Shown: positions 1 through 19,624 of the stretch, in pieces | Layout: each line of letters begins with the position of its first letter | Position numbering within the stretch: the stretch's first letter is position 1 | UHGV virus genome: UHGV-0446651 | Strand: one strand, 5' to 3' | DNA length: 36,348 bases | Origin: a virus | Translations under genes and position numbers: made by a program | The notes under the pieces: generated by a model | Database searches by the model: none | What the model was told of the DNA's origin: nothing | The model's input: only the letters and a program-made list of their open reading frames with translations

Positions 1-1562
1 GACCTCCTGGTCCACAAGGCGCTCCGGGATTGGATGGTATACAGGGTCCAAAAGGCGAACAGGGAATTCCGGGACCTCAAGGGAATACAGGTGCTACTGG
101 ACCGCAGGGACCAGCCGGACAGTCCACCTATTTCCATATCAAGTATTCCTCAGTTGCGAATCCTACATTAAGTAGCCAGATGACGGAAACGCCGTCTACA
201 TACATTGGTACTTACGTAGATTCTGCTCAAGCGGATAGCACGGATCCAAAGAAATATACATGGTCACGCTTCCAAGGACTCCAAGGGCCACAGGGAACGC
301 AGGGCATACCTGGAACGAACGGCACAAACGGCAAGACAAGTTATCTGCACATTAAATATTCCAACGATGGAGGTAAAACGTTTACCGGGAACAGCGGAGA
401 AGATGTGGGAACGTATATCGGTACTTGTGTGGATTACAATCAGTCCGATCCTGCAAGTGTTGGATCTTATAAGTGGGCGAAGATTAAAGGGGAAAACGGA
501 CAGGATGGTCAGGATGGAGCAGACGGTCAGGACGGTGTTGGGATTAAATCTATTACAAAATACTACCTTGCATCCGAAAGAAGTACTGGAATCACGGTAT
601 CCTCTCTGGGATGGACTACTACGATGCAGTCCATGACGGAAACGAATAAATACCTGTGGAGTTATGACAAGATATACTACACCAACGGAAAAACAGTAAA
701 CACAACACCTGTGATTATCGGAGTGCACGGGCAAAACGGAAGTGACGGAACATCGGGCATCATCATATCTCAGACAGCACCGGAAAATCCAAAGGTTGGA
801 CAGCTCTGGCAGACAGCAAGCGGAGAGCCGATTAAAAGATGGGACGGCAGTAAGTGGGTGATCTATTACATTTCGGTAGAAAATCTGAATGTAGAGACGC
901 TAAGTGCGATTGCCGCAAACCTCGGAACTGTAACCGCTGGACTTATAAAGAGTCTGGACGGACACTTTTTTATCCAAGTAAATACCGGAGAGATCTACTC
1001 CGAGGATGAAAACGGGATAAACAGCTCTGCGATAAGCAAGGGCGTATTTGTAGCGAATGGGATGGACAGCGGCAGACACACAAGCTTGTCTATATTCCCA
1101 ACGCAGATTGCGCAGTATTTTGACGGAGCCACCATTTCCAACCTTGTTATTTTTAAACGGGACGGTATATTTGTTAAAAGCTCCGGATCATACGAAATAA
1201 ACATATCTAAAGCAACAAATTATGACTCCGGAAAAATAAAAGGACCATTCGCCAGCACAAACTCATCCAACTATATACAGGCGGAGCTAATAAGGAGAGG
1301 GTGCGTGGTTACATGTAAGATCACAGCGCTTATACAGTTTCCGAACACGGGATCACACGGGCCATTTGAAGAATTAAGGATCCCTGTAGGATATCGACCA
1401 GCCGTAGACATAGTAGAGACGTACAGCGAATTGGTTGGTACGTCAGTTATCGGGACTGGCAGATATTACATCACAAAAGATGGAGGAGTATCCATTGTAA
1501 CTGGCAAGACAGACTACTGTGAACGCATAAAGACATTTACATGGATCACAGATGACGAGTAA
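1..1562 (+). CDS. C-terminal part of tail-associated (Tal-like) fiber protein with collagen-like Gly-X-Y tracts and a duplicated ~55-aa domain. 5'-partial; continues from 34854..36348 if the sequence is circular.
   Basis: Frame 3 is open from nt 3 (PPGPQGAPGLDGIQGPKGEQ...). Several GXY tracts occur (GLQGPQGTQGIPGTNGTNG; GENGQDGQDGADGQDG). There is a repeated motif Y(F/L)HIKYS...TYIGT(Y/C)VD...Y(T/K)W. The ORF ends at 1562 with TAA. Confidence 0.75.
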   Translation, partial: PPGPQGAPGLDGIQGPKGEQGIPGPQGNTGATGPQGPAGQSTYFHIKYSSVANPTLSSQMTETPSTYIGTYVDSAQADSTDPKKYTWSRFQGLQGPQGTQGIPGTNGTNGKTSYLHIKYSNDGGKTFTGNSGEDVGTYIGTCVDYNQSDPASVGSYKWAKIKGENGQDGQDGADGQDGVGIKSITKYYLASERSTGITVSSLGWTTTMQSMTETNKYLWSYDKIYYTNGKTVNTTPVIIGVHGQNGSDGTSGIIISQTAPENPKVGQLWQTASGEPIKRWDGSKWVIYYISVENLNVETLSAIAANLGTVTAGLIKSLDGHFFIQVNTGEIYSEDENGINSSAISKGVFVANGMDSGRHTSLSIFPTQIAQYFDGATISNLVIFKRDGIFVKSSGSYEINISKATNYDSGKIKGPFASTNSSNYIQAELIRRGCVVTCKITALIQFPNTGSHGPFEELRIPVGYRPAVDIVETYSELVGTSVIGTGRYYITKDGGVSIVTGKTDYCERIKTFTWITDDE

Positions 1563-1574
1563 AGGAGCGGAAAA

Positions 1575-1895
1575 ATGAGAATTTTAAGATTTATAGCAAA
1601 TGGACAGATGCTTGAGCCTGATCCGGAATGTGATTTTACAGGATTGATCTCCGGAACAGAAGGATATCTACAAGCAGAGTTTGTATTTGATTCCGAGTGG
1701 ACAGGGTGCCGAGTTGCGGCGTCCTTTTTTAATCTCGGAAAAGAATACCCGACAATCGTAGAAAACGGGAAATGCGAAATTCCAGCAAAAGCATTAGACT
1801 TTCAGGATTTTTACGTGCAGCTTACAGGAATTCGGGATGGATACAAGATAACAACAAACAGGAAAATTGTAAGGCAAAGGAGACCGGGAGAATGA
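1575..1895 (+). CDS. Hypothetical protein (106 aa) between the two tail fiber genes.
   Basis: RBS GGAGCGGAAAA precedes the ATG. The stop overlaps the next start as ATGA at 1892-1895. Confidence 0.55.
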   Translation: MRILRFIANGQMLEPDPECDFTGLISGTEGYLQAEFVFDSEWTGCRVAASFFNLGKEYPTIVENGKCEIPAKALDFQDFYVQLTGIRDGYKITTNRKIVRQRRPGE

Positions 1896-4120
1896 CAGAA
1901 GCGGAGAAATTATTGCAAGAAACAAAGAGTGCAGTTGTCGCGGAAACGCAGACGGAAGATATCTGTGTGATCGACTCCGACCTGAGAATCATCGACATAC
2001 CGGAACAATTTAAAGTTCTGGGTGTCGAAAGCGATAAAGACGTAAAAGTGATGCAGTTTCGGATGCCGAAAGTTTATAAAGGAACAGACTTATCCGCATT
2101 TAATATCTCTGTAAACTACCAAAATGCCAGAGGGACGAAAGACCGGTATGTTGTTACGGATAAAAAAGTGTCCGGTGACCAGATCGAGTTTTCGTGGACG
2201 GTCGGGAAAACTGCAACTGTATACAGTGGAGACACCCGTTTTATTGTCTGTATGCGTCTCACGGGCTCTGATGGTATAATCCAAAAAGAGTTTAATACTA
2301 CACTCGCCACAATGACCGTACTGGAAGGACTTGAAGTTGACGATCCAGTAATCGAACAGGAAGAAAAAGACATTATCGCGCAGCTGTTACAGATCGTGAA
2401 TGATAAATCCAAAGAAGCAATACAGGCAGTGACAGAAGAGGGAACAAAGCAGATCAAAGCATTACAGTCTGCAACGTCTACCGCAGCAACAGCAAAGAAA
2501 AATCTTGATGCAGCAATCGGTGAAGCAAACACAGCAAAAAGTCAGTTGTCGGATGTGATCACCAGTGCCGGAAAGGTAAAAGCGGATTTATCGGAAGTCA
2601 TTACACAGGCAAACACCGCAAAATCAAAACTGGATGCTTCCGTTACTACTGCAAATCAGGTATTGCAGTCATTGGATGCAGAAAATACTTCCGCAGCATC
2701 CAATATTGAAGAATTGAGAAGTGAGAACTTCAACAGTCAGGAAATTCTTGCAGGTGTGGCAGATTTAAGGGCTTACTTAGGTCTGACAGATGATGACATT
2801 GTTGGTGTGCAAGTGGATTATAAAAATAAATCATTCAAACGTATTGCAGGTGCGGTCAATCTGACAAAAGGTGCAGATTTTGACCGTTTTTCTATGTTCG
2901 GTGGTCGTAGACGCTGCAATGTTGCGGATGATGGTACTATCGTAGCATGGCATGGTGACCCGGACTATAAAGAAGATGGCACTATGGGTCAGGTAATGGT
3001 GTATCAGCCAAAGTTTTACTATTTGGTTTGCCCGGTGGTATATGACCCGATAGAAACGGGAATAGGTTACCATTTGAGAAAAGCAAACTATTATGTGTCA
3101 GAAAAACCACGTGCAGGTTTCAGACTGCATCCGGCTTTCTATGATGCGAATGGTAATGAAATTGACTATTTCCTCACATCTGCTTATAAAGGTAGTATTT
3201 GGGATGCAGACGGTGATGCATATTTGTTACAAGATGAACAGGTTATGAATGCAGGTGGAGATAAATTTTCTTCAATTTCAGGTGCAAGACCTGCATCCGG
3301 TTCAACTCAGGGACTTACAAGAACAGCTATTGAACAGATGGCACAAAATAGAGGTGCAAATTGGCATGGTGATCTTATTAAACAAGTTTCTGCTGAACAA
3401 ATGCTTATGATCATTGAAATGGGAATGATGAACTTACAAACAGCTATTGCACAAGGTGTTGTTACATTGCCTTGGGAAACTGGAAGTGATAAGACAAGTT
3501 CATATGCCGCTGTGACTGGAAGTACATCAGGTATTGGAAACGGTACTGGAAGGGCAGAAAGAACAACTACTTATGAAGGTGGTGTTGCAAAAGAATACAC
3601 CGTTGATGGTAAAACATCAGTTTGTTGGAGAGGTAAAGAAAACTTTTGGGGAAACATTTGGAAGTTTGTTTATGGAATTAATATTTGGGGTAATGGAAAA
3701 ATGGGGGGCGGTCAGCCTTACATTTGTTCTGATTTCAACTTTGCTGAAAACAAAAATAGCGGAAACTATGAGGGTGCGGGATTTACAGCAACTAATGTTG
3801 CAGGTTATATTTCAGCAATGGGATATTCTACAATTTGCGATTGGTTATTTATAGCATCTGAATGTACTGGAAACAGTTCTTTACCCGTTGGAGATTATAC
3901 TTATATTACACAAAATCTAAACGGTTACCGTATTGCTCGGTTGGGCGGTGGCTGGGCTGATGGCGGTAGTGCGGGTGCTTTCTGTTGGAATCTGACTGCC
4001 GGTGTGGGTTATCGTTTTCGGGCTCTCGGCGGTCGCTTGGTATATATCCCAACACGTGATTCTGCTGAATATACTGCCGCCATTGCATCATGGAAGGAAC
4101 AGATGAAGAAAGCAGCATAA
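1892..4120 (+). CDS. Tail fiber / receptor-binding protein. N-terminal BppU-like domain, then alanine-rich coiled-coil segment, then Gly/Trp-rich C-terminal domain.
   Basis: ATG at 1892 with RBS GGAGACCGGGAGA; the track ORF begins upstream at 1772 but lacks an RBS. Heptad-like repeats AAIGEANTAKSQLSDVITSAGKVKADLSEVITQANTAKSKLDAS. Position is immediately after Tal. Confidence 0.7.
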   Translation: MTEAEKLLQETKSAVVAETQTEDICVIDSDLRIIDIPEQFKVLGVESDKDVKVMQFRMPKVYKGTDLSAFNISVNYQNARGTKDRYVVTDKKVSGDQIEFSWTVGKTATVYSGDTRFIVCMRLTGSDGIIQKEFNTTLATMTVLEGLEVDDPVIEQEEKDIIAQLLQIVNDKSKEAIQAVTEEGTKQIKALQSATSTAATAKKNLDAAIGEANTAKSQLSDVITSAGKVKADLSEVITQANTAKSKLDASVTTANQVLQSLDAENTSAASNIEELRSENFNSQEILAGVADLRAYLGLTDDDIVGVQVDYKNKSFKRIAGAVNLTKGADFDRFSMFGGRRRCNVADDGTIVAWHGDPDYKEDGTMGQVMVYQPKFYYLVCPVVYDPIETGIGYHLRKANYYVSEKPRAGFRLHPAFYDANGNEIDYFLTSAYKGSIWDADGDAYLLQDEQVMNAGGDKFSSISGARPASGSTQGLTRTAIEQMAQNRGANWHGDLIKQVSAEQMLMIIEMGMMNLQTAIAQGVVTLPWETGSDKTSSYAAVTGSTSGIGNGTGRAERTTTYEGGVAKEYTVDGKTSVCWRGKENFWGNIWKFVYGINIWGNGKMGGGQPYICSDFNFAENKNSGNYEGAGFTATNVAGYISAMGYSTICDWLFIASECTGNSSLPVGDYTYITQNLNGYRIARLGGGWADGGSAGAFCWNLTAGVGYRFRALGGRLVYIPTRDSAEYTAAIASWKEQMKKAA

Positions 4121-6690: not shown

Positions 6691-7797
6691 TCACGCTTCC
6701 TTTTCTGCGTGTTGCATTTCGTGTTGCATATTCTCAAAATGTGAGTTTACTTTATCGATAAATTTCTTGTCTTCTGCATCAATCGTGTTGCGATAGACTT
6801 TTTTTAACACGCGATCAGATTTCCAACCGCCACGCTTCATTATATACTGGTCCGGTATCCCGATAGCGTGCATGATCGATGCGGTATAATGTCTGAGATC
6901 GTGGAATCGGAACTTTGGTATCCCTGCCGCTTGCAGTATACGCCCAAACTTTTTAGAGATATCTTCCGGGTGCATCTTAACAAGTTTTCCTTCTACATCA
7001 TCAAATTTCCGTATAACAAATTCTGGAAAAATAATATATCGGTAACTCTTTTTCGTCTTAGGTGACTTCTCGATCATCCCTTTTCTTCCGCGCACTCTTG
7101 TAATCCGGACTCTAATCGAATTTCCGTTTATATCCTCTTTTTCAAGCCCACACACTTCCCCACGTCTAAGGCTGCCAAAAGCGGCAAGAAGAACAGCTTT
7201 CTCAAGTTCTGTCCCCTTGATGTAGTTTATAAGATTTACAATATCTTGGTCGGAAGGAGTATAATATTCCAGCTCTTCGGATTGCGGGAGTGTAGTTTTG
7301 AACGTCCGGTCCGGAGCGTACATGGACATTACCGGAATGAAGAGACCGTAAGCATTTTTGACAGTTTTTGGAGATAGCCTTGCAGATAGATTATTGACCC
7401 ATATCTGTACATCCTCTTGTGTGATTTTTCGGATGTTAATTTCCTCAATATCCCCAATTTGGTTATTCATGATTGTTTCATAACCTCGCAGCGTTGTTTC
7501 TGATAATACATTTTCTTTCGCTTCTATATACCTTTTAAACGCTTGCTTTACAGTCATATTTTCCGGCCGTTTCTTAGTATCTCTTTCTGAAAGGAATGTA
7601 GCTGCCTGCGCTTCTGCATCCTGCTTTCCTTTTCTTCCTGGCAGATTGCTTGTGAAAGATTCGTAGATTCTCTTTTCCTTCTGTTTCCCTGTCTTCTCGT
7701 CGATAATTGGTTTTCCTTCCCTGTCGTATAGCTTTTCTTTGTGGCTATATACAAGACACCTCCATGTACCGGAGGGCAGCTGCTTTGCTGTTGCCAT
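6691..7797 (-). CDS. int: Tyrosine recombinase / phage integrase.
   Basis: C-terminal catalytic region HDLRHYTASIMHAIGIP...GGW...KVYR (R..H..R..Y type). Start taken at internal ATG 7797 with RBS AAGGAGATGACGAA; the track ORF extends to 7887 without an RBS. attP lies immediately downstream. Confidence 0.85.
   Translation of the reverse strand: MATAKQLPSGTWRCLVYSHKEKLYDREGKPIIDEKTGKQKEKRIYESFTSNLPGRKGKQDAEAQAATFLSERDTKKRPENMTVKQAFKRYIEAKENVLSETTLRGYETIMNNQIGDIEEINIRKITQEDVQIWVNNLSARLSPKTVKNAYGLFIPVMSMYAPDRTFKTTLPQSEELEYYTPSDQDIVNLINYIKGTELEKAVLLAAFGSLRRGEVCGLEKEDINGNSIRVRITRVRGRKGMIEKSPKTKKSYRYIIFPEFVIRKFDDVEGKLVKMHPEDISKKFGRILQAAGIPKFRFHDLRHYTASIMHAIGIPDQYIMKRGGWKSDRVLKKVYRNTIDAEDKKFIDKVNSHFENMQHEMQHAEKEA
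6707..6730. repeat. Integrase arm-type site candidates, right arm: 2 copies (GCGTGTTGCAT, TCGTGTTGCATA). They overlap the last codons of int.
   Basis: Same motif and orientation as the left-arm repeats. The integrase C-terminus ...MQHEMQHAEKEA is encoded across these repeats. Confidence 0.5.
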
Positions 7798-7963
7798 TTC
7801 GTCATCTCCTTTAAATTTAAGTATAAAAATAACAGCCAACGTGCGAACTGATGTTCCACTTGCATGACTGCTCCGAAGATGATACAATATTCTTGGATTT
7901 TAATCGCATATCTTCGGATATGTAGACCGTCTCAGTGTTGGTAGCACTGGGGCGGTTTTTATT

Positions 7964-17014: not shown

Positions 17015-18376
17015 ATGGAAAATTTGATTATAGATTGCTTCGCCGGAGGAGGTGGAGCGAGCGTAGGTATAGAAATGGCACTTGGAAGACAAGTAGATAT
17101 TGCAATCAATCACGATCCGGATGCAATTTTGATGCACAAGACAAACCACCCGAAAACATTGCATCTCACAGAAGATATCTTCAGGGTAGATTTGAAGAAA
17201 TATGTGAAAGGAAAGCGAGTTGCTTTAATGTGGGCGAGTCCTGATTGTACCAGCCACAGCAAGGCAAAAGGCGGGAAGCCGAGGGAAAAAGGACTTCGGA
17301 TTTTGCCTTGGGCGGTATACAAACACGCAAAAGCAATTCTCCCAGATGTGATTATCATGGAAAACGTGGAAGAGATTCAGCAATGGGGACCGCTGGATGA
17401 AAACGGGCATCCGATTAAGGAACGGCGTGGGGAAGATTATAAGAAGTTCATTACGGCAATGAAGAGTCTCGGGTATATATTCGACTGCCGGGAGCTTATT
17501 GCGGCAGACTATGGCGCGCCTACCACAAGAAAGCGCTGGTATGCAATATTTCGAAGAGACGGAAAAGACATCGTGTGGCCAGAAAAGACGAATTTTAAAT
17601 CCAGAGATCCGAAATGGCAGGAATGCGGGGCATATATCGATTGGTCTGATTTAGGGAAAACGATATTTGATAGACCAAAACCGTTGGCAGATGCAACGAT
17701 GAAAAGGATTGCAAATGGAATCAGAAAATATGTAATAGACAATCCATCTCCCTATATCGTGAGAAATAAAGATGCTGTTGCATTTATGATTCAGTACCAC
17801 GGAGAAACAAAAATTGGAGAATCAAGAGGACAGTTGCTGACAGAACCAATTAAAACAATCGACACATCAAACAGGTACGGCCTGGTGACAGCTTTTGTTA
17901 CAAAATTTTATAAAAGTGGAATCGGACAGGGATGCAACGAACCTTTACACACAATCACAACATCACCTGGACATTTTGGATTGATATCTGCGTTTTTAAT
18001 TAAGTATTACGGAACTGGCGGAGGGCAAGAACTTTCAAATCCGCTTGCAACGATTACTACGAAAGATCGTTTCGGACTGGTAAATGTGATTCTGGATATC
18101 AAAGGCGAAAAGTATGTCCTGAAGGATATTTTTTTGAGAATGTTAAAACCGGAAGAGCTTAAATTAATGCAGGGATTTCCGGAGGATTACATTATTGACA
18201 GGGATTACAAATACAGGAGATATCCGATCGTAAAACAAGTGGCTAGAATCGGAAACAGTGTAGTGCCAATTATGGCGCAGAAACTGGTAGAAGTAAACTG
18301 CCCGTATTTAAAAATCGGGAATAGGGTGCCGAACATAGAAATATATGAGGATGAGCAGCAAATTAGGTTTGCGTAG
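17015..18376 (+). CDS. Orphan DNA (cytosine-5)-methyltransferase, with three tandem ~32-aa repeats in the variable (TRD) region.
   Basis: Motif I DCFAGGGGAS. Motif IV SPDCTSHSKAKGG (a Pro-Cys-like motif with the catalytic Cys). Motif VI IMENVEE. Motif VIII TTRKRWYAIF. Motif IX/X QGFPEDY...IGNSVVP. Repeats: RYGLVTAFVTKFYKSGIGQGCNEPLHTITTS / HFGLISAFLIKYYGTGGGQELSNPLATITTK / RFGLVNVI... No adjacent restriction endonuclease. Confidence 0.8.
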   Translation: MENLIIDCFAGGGGASVGIEMALGRQVDIAINHDPDAILMHKTNHPKTLHLTEDIFRVDLKKYVKGKRVALMWASPDCTSHSKAKGGKPREKGLRILPWAVYKHAKAILPDVIIMENVEEIQQWGPLDENGHPIKERRGEDYKKFITAMKSLGYIFDCRELIAADYGAPTTRKRWYAIFRRDGKDIVWPEKTNFKSRDPKWQECGAYIDWSDLGKTIFDRPKPLADATMKRIANGIRKYVIDNPSPYIVRNKDAVAFMIQYHGETKIGESRGQLLTEPIKTIDTSNRYGLVTAFVTKFYKSGIGQGCNEPLHTITTSPGHFGLISAFLIKYYGTGGGQELSNPLATITTKDRFGLVNVILDIKGEKYVLKDIFLRMLKPEELKLMQGFPEDYIIDRDYKYRRYPIVKQVARIGNSVVPIMAQKLVEVNCPYLKIGNRVPNIEIYEDEQQIRFA

Positions 18377-18391
18377 TAGGAGGAATGACTA

Positions 18392-18808
18392 ATGGCAAAA
18401 ACAGAAGAAACATGGATGGATGGGATCACCACAGAAATGATGGAGCATATATGCGACGACCTGTGCAAGTATCCAGATCAGCTAAGTGGAATGGAACTGG
18501 AAGATAAATGCGCAGAATGCAAGATGGGACGGTTTGTGTGCGATATTTTGAACCAGTATAACAAGTGTGCGAAGTTGCTGGAGCAGATGCATGAGTTGAA
18601 AGAGCGGGATACGGCGAAGAAGCCGAAAAAATACGGAGTGACAGACAGCCAAGGTGTATTCCATCCATTGGTTGGAGTTGATGGAGTACCGTATGACTCA
18701 TGCCCGAATTGTGATAGTAATTTATGTACAACTGGTATGTTCGGAAGAAGCAAAGAAAGAATGAAGTATTGTGAGAAGTGCGGCCAGAGATTAGATTGGA
18801 GTGAGTAA
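18392..18808 (+). CDS. Cys-rich putative zinc-binding protein (138 aa): N-terminal C..C...C.EC cluster and C-terminal zinc ribbon CPNCDS...CEKCGQ.
   Basis: RBS GTAGGAGGAATGACTA precedes the ATG. Multiple CxxC pairs. Confidence 0.55.
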   Translation: MAKTEETWMDGITTEMMEHICDDLCKYPDQLSGMELEDKCAECKMGRFVCDILNQYNKCAKLLEQMHELKERDTAKKPKKYGVTDSQGVFHPLVGVDGVPYDSCPNCDSNLCTTGMFGRSKERMKYCEKCGQRLDWSE

Positions 18809-19019
18809 CATGGAAGAATTGAAGAAATGTCCATTTTGTGGTTCCAACAGAGGGTATTACCAGATTGAAAGAGTACATAGAGCTTTATTGTTTAATTTTG
18901 ACGGTGAACCGATCGGAGGAACAGAAGATGTTACAGATTATGCAGGACGCAGGAAACAGTGTATCGATTGTGGCAAGACACTCCCGAGGAAACTGTTTGA
19001 GGAAGTGATGGAAAAGTAA
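18801..19019 (+). CDS. Zinc-ribbon protein (72 aa): CPFCGS ... CIDCGK.
   Basis: Overlaps the previous gene by 8 nt. Two CxxC pairs. Confidence 0.5.
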   Translation: MSNMEELKKCPFCGSNRGYYQIERVHRALLFNFDGEPIGGTEDVTDYAGRRKQCIDCGKTLPRKLFEEVMEK

Positions 19020-19082: not shown

Positions 19083-19199
19083 ATGAAAAAAGAGTGCATT
19101 AAATGCAAATATTATAAAAACTACTATAAATCAACAGAATGTTATTGCAAAAAAGGTTATTGTGTTATGGATAAGAGAAACAGGAGACGAAATAAATGA
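19083..19199 (+). CDS. Cys-rich mini-protein (38 aa; MKKECIKCKYYKNYYKSTECYCKKGYCVMDKRNRRRNK).
   Basis: RBS GGAGGTGGAG precedes the ATG. ATGA overlap with the next gene. Confidence 0.4.
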   Translation: MKKECIKCKYYKNYYKSTECYCKKGYCVMDKRNRRRNK

Positions 19200-19624
19200 A
19201 TGTACTAGAGAAGATCTTGGAAGAAAAAGAAATTGTAGCGATCAAAGAACTAATAGAAGAAAATGAAAAATGCTTTAATCAATGTGAGGGTGCTTGTTGT
19301 AGCGTGGAAAGCGGTATATGCAATTGTGATGATGGCGTGATAGTGCAAGCAATTCATAAAATGAAGAAGTATTTAGAGTTGGCTAATGACAAAAATGTCC
19401 CTAGTAAAAACGGTTGGATTCCGGTAAGTGAGAAATTGCCGGAAGAATCAGATTATTATATGGCTTGCATCTACAATGATGAAGCAGACGATTATGATTT
19501 CAGAAAAACATGGTTCGCTCACGCAGATGACTATGACATGGATGAATCAGAGTGGCGAGAACTGTATGATTTTGAAAGAGTAATCGCATGGCAGCCACTA
19601 CCAGAACCATACAAGGAGGAATAA
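19196..19624 (+). CDS. Hypothetical protein with an N-terminal Cys cluster (CFNQCEGACCSVESGICNCDDG) and a C-terminal DUF551-like region (GWIPVSEKLPEE...W).
   Basis: The ORF is 142 aa. The DUF551 assignment is from a remembered family signature, not a search. Confidence 0.5.
   Translation: MNVLEKILEEKEIVAIKELIEENEKCFNQCEGACCSVESGICNCDDGVIVQAIHKMKKYLELANDKNVPSKNGWIPVSEKLPEESDYYMACIYNDEADDYDFRKTWFAHADDYDMDESEWRELYDFERVIAWQPLPEPYKEE

What the first reader, a model, noticed from the sequence alone, without database searches (positions are those of the whole stretch)
17015..18376. Orphan C5-cytosine methyltransferase with a triplicated ~32-aa unit in the target-recognition region
All C5-MTase motifs are present (FAGGGG, a Pro-Cys-like motif IV, ENV, R.R motif VIII, GNSV motif X), but there is no partner endonuclease. 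The orphan status suggests an anti-restriction role. Between motif VIII and motif IX the protein contains three tandem degenerate repeats ((R/H)(Y/F)GL(V/I).AF(V/L).K(F/Y)Y..G.GQ....PL.TITT). This is reminiscent of multispecific phage MTases that carry several target-recognition modules. Motif IV reads SPDCTSH rather than the usual PCQ.
Basis: partly seen in the sequence, partly recalled or inferred. Interest (0 to 1): 0.6.

Follow-up and report, generated by a model that had tools for sequence, protein, structure and literature searches.

The report
Phage cytosine methylase with modular repeats
This is a stand-alone DNA cytosine methylase of a gut-bacterium phage, and its DNA-recognition region is built from three copies of a 33-residue module; the same module occurs 1 to 11 times in hundreds of related phage enzymes, some of which are known experimentally to methylate many different sites.

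Summary
ORF 17015-18376 (+) encodes a 453-aa C5-cytosine DNA methyltransferase with every catalytic motif. Between motifs VIII and IX it carries three tandem ~33-aa units (aa 253-286, 287-319, 320-352), far more alike than chance allows.

The window is a complete temperate siphophage. I found no restriction endonuclease in it, so the gene is a solitary methylase.

The triplication is the low end of a family-wide feature. Among 365 diverse full-length relatives, all sharing motif IV SPDC[KT]H[FH]S, the unit occurs 1-11 times (median 5). There are at least 35 unit types. Their order is conserved, indels are clean and one unit long, and the last unit is constant.

Each unit has a variable Gly-rich loop followed by an almost invariant P-x-x-T-[IV]-T. 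This resembles the "TL" signature of target-recognition domains.

Published protection assays on family members report "relaxed" specificity, with partial protection of many unrelated sites. These members are Aeromonas phage ARM81 enzymes and Paracoccus prophage enzymes. I found 5 units in each of the two ARM81 enzymes, and 9 in a P. siganidrum homologue that stands in for the assayed Paracoccus enzymes, whose own sequences I could not fetch.

My preferred reading is a broad-spectrum anti-restriction methylase built from plug-in mini-recognition modules. This is unproven: two AlphaFold runs left the repeats at low confidence, and the units show no significant similarity to HhaI or SPbeta recognition domains.

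The parts
17015..18376 (+). Gene for a solitary 453-aa C5-cytosine DNA methyltransferase (end includes the stop codon)
   Evidence: ORF list. PF00145 E 6.6e-25. PHROG_116 'DNA methyltransferase' E 3e-84. Foldseek best hits M.HaeIII, 3g7u and M.HhaI, E about 1e-13.
17039..17056 (+). Motif I, F9-AGGGG14 (SAM binding)
   Evidence: Translation. F9, G11, G13 and G14 are invariant in every family alignment; A10 and G12 are invariant or nearly so.
17237..17260 (+). Motif IV, S75-PDCTSHS82, with catalytic Cys78. This is the family-typical SPDC variant of the usual PC(Q) motif.
   Evidence: Translation. Motif census over 384 diverse relatives: SPDCKHFS 168, SPDCTHFS 97, SPDCTHHS 56, SPDCTSHS 5.
17360..17368 (+). 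Motif VI, E116-N-V118
   Evidence: Invariant in alignments A1, A2 and A4.
17528..17536 (+). Motif VIII, R172-K-R174 (T170-x-R-x-R)
   Evidence: T170, R172 and R174 are invariant.
17771..17872 (+). Repeat unit 1 (aa 253-286): DAVAFMIQYHGETKIGESRGQLLTEPIKTIDTSN. A degenerate, position-specific 'first' unit (type Q).
   Evidence: Shuffle tests z 5.2-8.4. Unit-HMM hit at 255-287, 26 bits. Typed as Q.
17873..17971 (+). Repeat unit 2 (aa 287-319): RYGLVTAFVTKFYKSGIGQGCNEPLHTITTSPG
   Evidence: U2/U3 z = 15.7. HMM hit of 44 bits. It is the most conserved unit among close homologues, entropy 0.21. The same unit type sits next to last in 7- and 8-unit relatives.
17972..18070 (+). Repeat unit 3 (aa 320-352): HFGLISAFLIKYYGTGGGQELSNPLATITTKDR. 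This is the constant terminal unit (type A).
   Evidence: HMM hit of 53 bits. Type A is the last unit in 186 of 269 proteins. Among homologues at least 81% identical, variation is concentrated in its loop, aa 334-343.
18071..18190 (+). Hairpin (aa 353-374) plus motif IX (R375-MLKPEELKLMQGFPEDY392)
   Evidence: Strands 359-362 and 365-375 in the AlphaFold model. hhalign to HhaI motifs IX-X, probability 93.8%.
18251..18262 (+). Motif X, G413-N-S-V416. Asn414 is kept, which marks a methyl-transferring rather than a carboxymethyl-transferring enzyme.
   Evidence: In the alignment to 8yf3 (CmoX), the chain reads 'vGRmvpP' where the query reads 'iGNSVvP'. PMC12783734 identifies this Asn-to-Arg change as the Cx-SAM determinant.

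Best explanation
The gene encodes an active, SAM-dependent DNA C5-cytosine methyltransferase. A temperate siphophage of Lachnospiraceae-type gut bacteria carries it as a solitary gene at the end of its replication and recombination module.

It belongs to a very large phage and prophage subfamily marked by motif IV SPDC[KT]H[FH]S. In this subfamily the variable region between motifs VIII and IX is an array of ~33-aa modules. Each module has a hydrophobic segment, a variable Gly-rich polar loop, and a nearly invariant P-x-x-T-[IV]-T.

I propose that each module is a miniature target-recognition element (loop 1, TL dipeptide, short loop 2). Each can be presented to the single catalytic pocket in turn. 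The enzyme would therefore methylate several unrelated short sequences, with three modules giving at most about three here. During lytic growth this would protect phage DNA against several host restriction enzymes.

Shown:
- gene, motifs and fold
- solitary status
- reality of the repeat
- family-wide copy-number variation by whole units
- conserved unit types

Inferred:
- methylation activity
- one specificity per module
- the anti-restriction role
For: Catalytic core
- PF00145 match, PHROG_116 match, and Foldseek hits to M.HaeIII and M.HhaI.

Phage context without an endonuclease
-.

The repeat is real
-.

Family census
- 365 diverse full-length relatives carry 1-11 units, median 5.
- Protein length rises by about 40 aa per unit, r = 0.72.

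Unit anatomy
- P24 is conserved in 99% of units, T27 in 96%, and position 28 is I or V in 88%.
- Loop positions 10-23 are variable.

Unit types
- At least 35 types, each with its own conserved loop residues.
- Some types stay 82-89% identical between proteins whose catalytic domains are only 38-47% identical.

Units are individually dispensable
- 237 architectures occur among 269 proteins.
- Natural 2-unit enzymes differ from 3-unit relatives by clean, in-register, one-unit deletions.

Comparison with a bona fide multispecific enzyme
- SPbeta MtbP also shows one P-x-x-T-[LV] motif per recognition domain ('SPTLTT' and 'EPAFTVNTIDRHGV').

Experimental support from relatives
- ARM81ld_p31 and ARM81mr_p29 each have 5 units by my count. 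They are reported as m5C MTases with relaxed specificity (PMC5537653).
- Paracoccus prophage enzymes JCM7686_0772 and JCM7686_2655 partially protect AGCT, GGCC, CCWGG, CCGG, GCGC, ACGT, CAGCTG, CTCGAG and other sites. They do not protect CGCG, GATC or CATG (PMC3925955 and its Additional file 8).
- A homologue with the same N-terminus has 9 units.
Against: - No structural support. Two AlphaFold2 runs leave most of the repeat region below pLDDT 50: aa 215-375 in the first run, and 248-317 plus 334-357 in the second.
- The unit HMM does not significantly match the HhaI recognition domain (156 of 300 shuffles score as well) or SPbeta MtbP.
- hhalign aligns only motifs IX-X to HhaI.
- Unit order is 98.9% conserved. 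Arrays therefore evolve by loss and gain within a fixed order, not by free cassette shuffling. That also fits a structurally ordered repeat domain.
- The first and last units are position-specific. The smallest confirmed full-length enzymes, checked for motifs I and X, have 2 units. The census also records one protein with a single HMM hit, which I did not examine. One functional recognition domain might therefore need a pair of units.
- The published 'relaxed specificity' could reflect loose recognition rather than several discrete specificities.
- The Paracoccus link rests on a homologue from another species, not on the assayed protein itself.
Confidence: 0.5

Rival explanations
1. There is a single composite recognition domain. 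The units are structural repeats (hairpin- or solenoid-like) that stack into one enlarged DNA-binding domain. Copy number tunes the footprint or the non-specific DNA affinity. The broad specificity seen in relatives would then be loose recognition of a very short context (for example 'CC'), not several discrete specificities.
For: - Unit order is 98.9% conserved, and the first and last units are position-specific.
- The smallest confirmed full-length enzymes keep two units.
- Duplications are old, and units within one protein are no more alike than units from different proteins (32% against 33%). This is what an established repeat domain looks like.
- There is no detectable homology to known recognition domains.
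Against: - Sites without CC (AGCT, GCGC, ACGT, CTCGAG) are also partly protected, while CGCG, GATC and CATG are not. This looks like a list of sites rather than one short context.
- Every unit keeps its own P-x-x-T-[IV] motif at 96-99%, although a single domain needs only one TL.
- Internal units are individually dispensable in nature.
- Loop residues specific to a unit type are conserved more strongly than the catalytic domain.
Confidence: 0.3
2. The repeats do not read DNA. They would be a flexible or disordered spacer, a protein-interaction surface, or a decoy, and specificity would come only from the last unit and the adjacent hairpin.
For: - The whole array has low AlphaFold confidence.
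- The last unit is the only universally conserved one (51% mean identity).
- The units are roughly charge-neutral, judged by reading the sequences.
Against: - The units contain conserved hydrophobic segments and invariant Pro and Thr positions, which is not typical of disordered linkers.
- Type-specific loops are under strong purifying selection across distant hosts.
- Spacing is tightly centred on 31-37 aa.
Confidence: 0.1
3. It is not a methyltransferase in practice. Either it is a CmoX-like C5-carboxymethyltransferase feeding a hypermodification pathway, or it is catalytically dead.
For: - The solved CmoX structure 8yf3 is the second-best sequence match in the PDB (E 2e-5) and is among the top fold matches.
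- Motif IV deviates from the classical PCQ.
- Phi2LM21_p23, which the paper reports as 34% identical to the ARM81 enzymes, was inactive in E. coli.
Against: - CmoX replaces the motif X Asn with Arg to bind Cx-SAM (PMC12783734). The query keeps G-N414-S-V.
- No cmoA or ligase gene was found in the window.
- All catalytic residues (Cys78, Glu116, Arg172, Arg174, Asn414) are invariant across the family.
- Several relatives are active m5C methylases.
Confidence: 0.04

Closest known systems
Phage and prophage m5C methyltransferases with 'relaxed specificity': Aeromonas phage ARM81ld_p31 and ARM81mr_p29, Paracoccus aminophilus JCM7686_0772 and JCM7686_2655, Sinorhizobium Phi2LM21_p23 (Dziewit/Radlinska laboratory)
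   Same: - Same subfamily. The query is 35% identical to ARM81ld_p31 over 95% of its length (H7).
- Same SPDC motif IV and the same unit array.
- Also solitary genes. ARM81mr_p29 and Phi2LM21_p23 lie in the replication module, as here, while ARM81ld_p31 lies next to the plasmid partitioning system.
   Different: - Those enzymes are larger, 554-746 aa with 5-9 units. The query has only 3 units and may therefore have a narrower target set.
- The papers I could read do not describe the repeat architecture.
- The query itself has not been tested.
Multispecific C5-methyltransferases of Bacillus phages (M.SPRI, M.Phi3TI, M.SPbetaI/MtbP, M.H2I)
   Same: - Phage-encoded and solitary.
- One catalytic core with several recognition elements in tandem between motifs VIII and IX.
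- Each element has its own TL-like P-x-x-T-[LVI] motif.
- The purpose is protection against several host restriction enzymes (background summarised in PMC8936443).
   Different: - No sequence homology outside motifs IV-VIII (27% identity, E 2e-5).
- Classical PC motif IV instead of SPDC.
- In MtbP the two TL-like motifs lie 47 residues apart (my count on the translation), and by eye the two elements are not alike. The units here are ~33 aa, mutually homologous, and reach 11 copies.
Monospecific M.HhaI and M.HaeIII
   Same: - Same catalytic fold (Foldseek E about 1e-13).
- Same motifs IX-X (hhalign probability 93.8%).
- The HhaI recognition domain contains 'GKGGQG...ITL', which resembles the unit's 'G.GGQ....P..TIT' by eye (HhaI sequence verified).
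   Different: - The resemblance of the recognition region is not statistically supported.
- HhaI has one recognition domain with two loops.
- The query's variable region is about twice as long: about 200 aa between motifs VIII and IX, against about 107 in HhaI.
3g7u, putative C5-methyltransferase of E. coli prophage CP-933R (closest solved structure by sequence)
   Same: Prophage-encoded C5-MTase. Best PDB sequence match over motifs I-VIII and IX-X (E 5e-10 with the single sequence, 1.4e-20 with the profile).
   Different: It has the classical PPCQ motif IV (alignment). Its variable region does not align with the repeat array.

Membership tests
C5-cytosine DNA methyltransferases (Pfam PF00145) | Ordered motifs: I (FxGxG), IV (catalytic Cys), VI (ENV), VIII (RxR), IX, X (GN) | tested here: met
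   F9-G14, C78, E116-V118, R172/R174, R375-E381 and G413-N414 are present, and they are invariant in the family alignments. Motif IV reads SPDC rather than PPC/PCQ.
C5-cytosine DNA methyltransferases (Pfam PF00145) | Score above the curated family threshold | tested here: met
   PF00145 scores 88.7 bits against a cut-off of 22. NCBIfam TIGR00675 'dcm' scores 76.4, below its cut-off of 100.65, so it is not a member of that narrower model.
C5-cytosine DNA methyltransferases (Pfam PF00145) | Catalytic-domain fold of M.HhaI and M.HaeIII | tested here: met
   The AlphaFold core has pLDDT 85-97. Foldseek hits: 3ubt (M.HaeIII) E 7.6e-14 and 2i9k (M.HhaI) E 3.2e-13.
C5-cytosine DNA methyltransferases (Pfam PF00145) | Transfers a methyl group to cytosine C5 in DNA | not testable with these tools
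   Inferred from intact catalytic residues and from active relatives.
Multispecific Bacillus-phage C5-MTases (SPR, phi3T, SPbeta, H2 type) | Phage-encoded, with no cognate endonuclease | tested here: met
   The window is a temperate siphophage, and the scanned ORFs include no endonuclease partner. The same holds for a 98%-identical copy elsewhere.
Multispecific Bacillus-phage C5-MTases (SPR, phi3T, SPbeta, H2 type) | Several non-overlapping recognition domains in tandem between motifs VIII and IX, each with its own TL-type motif | tested here: inconclusive
   There are three tandem units, each ending in P-x-x-T-I-(T/D)-T. Whether each is an autonomous recognition domain could not be shown, because the AlphaFold models have low confidence there.
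Multispecific Bacillus-phage C5-MTases (SPR, phi3T, SPbeta, H2 type) | Sequence homology of the enzyme and its variable region to these proteins | tested here: not met
   Against SPbeta MtbP, only motifs IV-VIII align (27% identity, E 2e-5). The unit HMM finds nothing significant in MtbP.
Multispecific Bacillus-phage C5-MTases (SPR, phi3T, SPbeta, H2 type) | Two or more discrete target sequences shown experimentally, each separable by deleting one domain | not testable with these tools
   The only evidence is indirect: relatives partially protect many unrelated sites.
Phage 'relaxed-specificity' m5C MTases (ARM81ld_p31 and JCM7686_0772 type) | Full-length homology, including motif IV SPDC and the repeat array | tested here: met
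   35% identity over 95% of the query with ARM81ld_p31. SPDC[KR]HFS and 5 units in both ARM81 enzymes, and 9 units in the Paracoccus siganidrum homologue.
Phage 'relaxed-specificity' m5C MTases (ARM81ld_p31 and JCM7686_0772 type) | Solitary gene in or next to the replication module of a temperate phage | tested here: met
   The gene lies after the RusA, DnaD-like and neighbouring genes, and before the late regulator and terminase. The published description is the same.
Phage 'relaxed-specificity' m5C MTases (ARM81ld_p31 and JCM7686_0772 type) | Methylation of many different sequence contexts | not testable with these tools
   Needs expression of the gene and 5mC mapping.
CmoX C5-carboxymethyltransferases | Arg in place of the motif X Asn, and a neighbouring cmoA (Cx-SAM synthase) gene | tested here: not met
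   The query has G-N414-S-V where 8yf3 has G-R (PMC12783734). No cmoA-like gene was found among the scanned ORFs.

The most novel reading that the evidence does not exclude
The ~33-aa units are autonomous plug-in recognition modules. The composition of an array (1-11 modules drawn from at least 35 types) would then spell out a combinatorial list of methylated sequences. That would make this the largest natural family of modular, multispecific DNA methyltransferases, far beyond the 2-5 specificities known from Bacillus phage enzymes. It would also offer a readable 'module type to target sequence' code for predicting phage methylomes and for building designer methylases.
Probability: 0.35. Interest if true: 0.75.

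Novelty: new variant of a known kind. Interest (0 to 1): 0.55.

Why it matters
Solitary phage methylases are a main route by which phages escape restriction. 5mC is also the bacterial DNA mark that common sequencing methods detect least well. If each module adds a target sequence, the methylation repertoire of thousands of phages and prophages could be read from sequence. That includes phages of gut Lachnospiraceae, Pseudomonas, Burkholderia, Klebsiella, E. coli and Vibrio. The 'relaxed specificity' reported for a few enzymes would gain a structural explanation. The modules would also be natural parts for engineering methylases. If the array instead forms one repeat domain, it is still an undescribed way of building the DNA-binding half of a C5-methyltransferase.

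Tried and rejected
- AlphaFold2, run 1: 67 sequences mixing close homologues with 4-unit and larger relatives. Run 2: 64 sequences enriched for diverse 2-, 3- and 4-unit members. The core was confident in both. The repeat region stayed below pLDDT 50 and its secondary structure was inconsistent, helix in one unit and strand in another. No structural verdict is possible.
- Unit HMM against the M.HhaI recognition domain (sequence verified): not better than shuffles.
- hhalign of a profile of the last unit plus C-terminus against HhaI 224-327: only motifs IX-X align.
- Unit HMM and BLASTP against SPbeta MtbP: nothing significant in the variable region.
- PDB sequence searches with the whole protein, the family profile, and the repeat plus C-terminal segment: no solved structure matches the repeats.
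- Diversity-generating retroelement or recent DNA duplication: no DNA-level repeat or template copy in the window.
- Target sites inferred from word statistics of the phage genome: the apparent CCGG excess and GGCC deficit disappear under a maximal-order Markov expectation. Only general avoidance of 6-bp palindromes remains.
- CmoX-type carboxymethyltransferase: rejected on the motif X Asn and the absence of cmoA.
- Exact-sequence look-up of the query's source contig: not on record.
- Text search for the SPDC motif strings: no relevant paper.
- The J Gen Virol 2016 ARM81 paper and the EMBO J papers on recognition domains are not held.
Full report
**1. The observation**

ORF 17015-18376 (+) is a 453-aa reading frame that starts at the first ATG after a stop codon.
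- motif I: F9-AGGGG14
- motif IV: S75-PDC78-TSHS82
- motif VI: E116-NV118
- motif VIII: R172-K-R174
- motif IX: R375-ML..E381
- motif X: G413-NSV416

Pfam PF00145 covers residues 5-426 (E 6.6e-25, 88.7 bits against a cut-off of 22). PHROG_116 'DNA methyltransferase' matches at 3e-84. NCBIfam TIGR00675 is hit but stays below its cut-off.

The three units are aa 253-286, 287-319 and 320-352. In BLOSUM62 local alignments against 2000 shuffles, U2/U3 scores 80 (z = 15.7), U1/U3 gives z = 8.4 and U1/U2 gives z = 5.2. No shuffle reaches any observed score. The 'FGLV' at aa 353 only begins like a unit and then becomes the hairpin before motif IX. At DNA level the units are 46% identical, and blastn finds no repeat. 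This is therefore an old, protein-level repeat.

**2. Context**

The window is a complete temperate siphophage. Gene order runs as follows:
- tail fibre and tail genes (30-4120)
- holin (5386) and amidase (5702)
- integrase (6691-7887, minus strand)
- HTH regulators and Ant (10624)
- Gam, exonuclease, NinB-like and RusA genes
- DnaD-like loader (14935)
- the methylase (17015)
- small zinc-ribbon and DUF551 ORFs
- a regulator with a weak, sub-threshold match to sigma-70 region 4 (20656)
- TerS, TerL and portal
- head and tail genes, tape measure (31058) and Dit (33385)

None of the scanned ORFs resembles a restriction endonuclease.

A 98%-identical methylase (P0001) sits at the same place in a phage with a different replication module (DUF927 primase, ERCC4). 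It lies after the replication genes and before the sigma-like regulator and terminase, and it is again solitary.

Close homologues (at least 81% identical) are very numerous in gut metagenomes. Where they carry a name, it is Blautia or Lacrimispora.

**3. The fold and the rival chemistry**

Two AlphaFold2 runs give a confident catalytic core (pLDDT 85-97). Its best PDB matches are M.HaeIII, the prophage enzyme 3g7u, M.HhaI and CmoX (E about 1e-13).

CmoX is a phage C5-carboxymethyltransferase. Its specificity for Cx-SAM depends on an Arg that replaces the motif X Asn (PMC12783734). The query keeps G-N414-S-V where 8yf3 reads G-R. No cmoA gene was found in the window. I therefore reject carboxymethyl transfer.

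**4. The triplication is one case of a family-wide array**

A search of 1.84 billion cluster representatives returned relatives of 435 to more than 1000 aa, with up to 7 matched stretches. I built an HMM from units 2 and 3 and iterated it on those proteins. It converged on the consensus HHALVAAFLVKYYGGGRGQSLDEPLPTITTKDR.

Over all fetched proteins, 365 diverse full-length members carry 1-11 units, median 5. Length grows by about 40 aa per unit (r = 0.72), and unit spacing peaks at 31-37 aa.

Within the unit, P24 (99%), T27 (96%), I/V28 and T29 are nearly fixed. Positions 10-23 and 26 vary.

**5. How the arrays evolve**

- Units within one protein are no more alike (32%) than units from different proteins (33%). 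The last unit is conserved across the family (51%), and so is the first (40%). The duplications are ancient and the units have positional identity.
- Clustering 1576 units gives at least 35 types with 8 or more members. Each type has its own conserved loop residues. There are 237 architectures among 269 proteins, and nearly all end in type A. The query reads Q-A-A.
- Some types stay 82-89% identical between proteins whose catalytic domains are only 38-47% identical.
- The order of types is 98.9% consistent. Arrays differ by presence or absence of units within a conserved order, not by shuffling.
- Full-length 2-unit enzymes (P0479 at 404 aa, P0403 at 409 aa) differ from 3-unit relatives by clean one-unit deletions in two different registers. 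This is the footprint of unequal recombination between neighbouring units.
- Among homologues at least 81% identical to the query, variation in the last unit is concentrated in its loop, aa 334-343. Examples are GTGGGQELSN, GSGGSCQGVDR and GTGCGQDLRE.

**6. Are the units recognition modules?**

Canonical C5-methylases read DNA with two loops that flank a conserved TL dipeptide (PMC2790894). Multispecific Bacillus phage enzymes carry several recognition domains in tandem (summarised in PMC8936443).

In SPbeta MtbP, which I fetched (L002:28716-30044), two TL-type motifs are visible: 'SPTLTT' and 'EPAFTVNTIDRHGV'. The second looks much like the unit end 'EPLxTITTKDRFGLV'. HhaI's 'GKGGQG...ITL' (sequence verified) also resembles 'G.GGQ....P..TIT'.

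None of this is statistically supported:
- The unit HMM scores no better on the HhaI recognition domain than on shuffles.
- The unit HMM finds nothing in MtbP.
- hhalign aligns only motifs IX-X.
- No solved structure matches the repeats.
- AlphaFold leaves the repeats at low confidence in both runs.

The equivalence of unit and mini recognition domain therefore rests on four things: position in the protein, the per-unit TL-like motif, type-specific loop conservation, and the fact that individual units are dispensable.

**7. Experimental link**

Family members occur in cultured phages:

| Phage | Units |
|---|---|
| Pseudomonas phage Turba | 8 |
| Burkholderia phage BgManors32 | 8 |
| Escherichia phage Flotzy | 7 |
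| Roseburia phage Jekyll | 6 |
| Aeromonas phage phiARM81ld | 5 |
| Aeromonas phage phiARM81mr | 5 |
| Acetoanaerobium phage ANDSL2_ph1 | 4 |
| Bacillus phi105 record KY197768 | 3 |

PMC5537653 states that ARM81ld_p31 and ARM81mr_p29 are m5C methylases with relaxed specificity. It also says that homologous phage proteins of about 700 aa are widespread.

PMC3925955 expressed two Paracoccus aminophilus prophage enzymes, JCM7686_0772 and JCM7686_2655. It found partial protection against AluI (AGCT), BsuRI (GGCC), EcoRII (CCWGG), HpaII and MspI (CCGG), Hin6I (GCGC), TaiI (ACGT), PvuII, XhoI and others. It found none against CGCG, GATC, CATG or CCATGG.

I used the published forward primer as a probe. 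It retrieved a 746-aa Paracoccus siganidrum homologue with the same N-terminus, SPDCKHFSKA, and nine units. This is a homologue, not the assayed protein itself.

A list of unrelated protected sites, several of them lacking CC, fits multiple specificities better than one short context. The protection was only partial, however, and the authors read it as relaxed specificity. I found no paper that describes the unit array.

**8. Verdict**

The gene is an ordinary-looking solitary phage C5-methylase of a known, partly characterised family. Its repeat is real, and it points to an apparently undescribed modular architecture of that family's DNA-recognition region.

| Reading | Confidence |
|---|---|
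| Array of mini recognition modules giving several specificities, used for anti-restriction | 0.5 |
| One composite repeat domain with loose recognition | 0.3 |
| Repeats that do not read DNA | 0.1 |
| Non-methyl chemistry or an inactive enzyme | 0.04 |

With three units, the query should have a narrower repertoire than the 5-9-unit enzymes tested so far.

Noticed in passing
window 18801-19019 (+), with 18392-18808 (+) just upstream: Two small Cys-rich ORFs lie directly downstream of the methylase. The 72-aa one has a weak, sub-threshold match to the Lar restriction-alleviation family (PF14354, E 0.0018, 18.9 bits against a cut-off of 28.6). A second anti-restriction gene next to the methylase would be interesting.
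   Followed up: partly
proteins P0184, P0186, P0205 (883-1084 aa; also P0249 and P0258 by length): The long family members contain an intein (Hint plus a LAGLIDADG homing endonuclease). It is inserted where the match to the query resumes at residues 76-77, that is at motif IV, immediately before or within a residue or two of the catalytic Cys of SPDC.
   Followed up: partly
window 17015-18376 compared with locus L003 8001-9500: A 98%-identical methylase sits in a phage with an unrelated replication module (DUF927 primase-helicase and ERCC4, instead of a DnaD-like loader and RusA). The gene moves between phage backbones as a cassette.
   Followed up: partly
family profile A1 against the PDB: Over motif VIII and the following 'WPEPTH' segment, the family profile matches plant MET1 (E about 7e-16) and mammalian DNMT1 (E about 3e-13) at least as well as bacterial M.HhaI (5e-13). 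DNMT1 and MET1 share the 'wPEPmH' string.
   Followed up: no
locus L013 (KY197768.1, labelled Bacillus phage phi105), 1465-2850: A 3-unit family member (SPDCKHFSKA) is encoded in a record that annotates only the cwlH gene, so this methylase gene is unannotated there.
   Followed up: partly
locus L009 (Escherichia phage Flotzy) 174-3438; also phage Eeyore (H83): In these E. coli phages the 7-unit methylase gene overlaps the end of a gene annotated as phosphoadenosine phosphosulfate reductase. This may be a linked DNA-modification function.
   Followed up: no
whole window: Several 6-bp palindromes are strongly avoided under a maximal-order Markov expectation: CCATGG 0 observed against 7.3 expected, GAATTC 5 against 17, CATATG 2 against 9.5. 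No 4-bp C5 target stands out.
   Followed up: partly
window 30-1562 (+): The ORF at the left edge is a 510-aa tail-fibre or host-range protein. It matches many tail-fibre PHROGs, including a collagen-like minor tail family. The window looks like a circularly permuted complete phage genome, but its ends share no exact terminal overlap.
   Followed up: no
window 19196-19624 (+): A DUF551 protein (PF04448, E 5.7e-10) lies in the block of small genes between the methylase and the late regulator.
   Followed up: no
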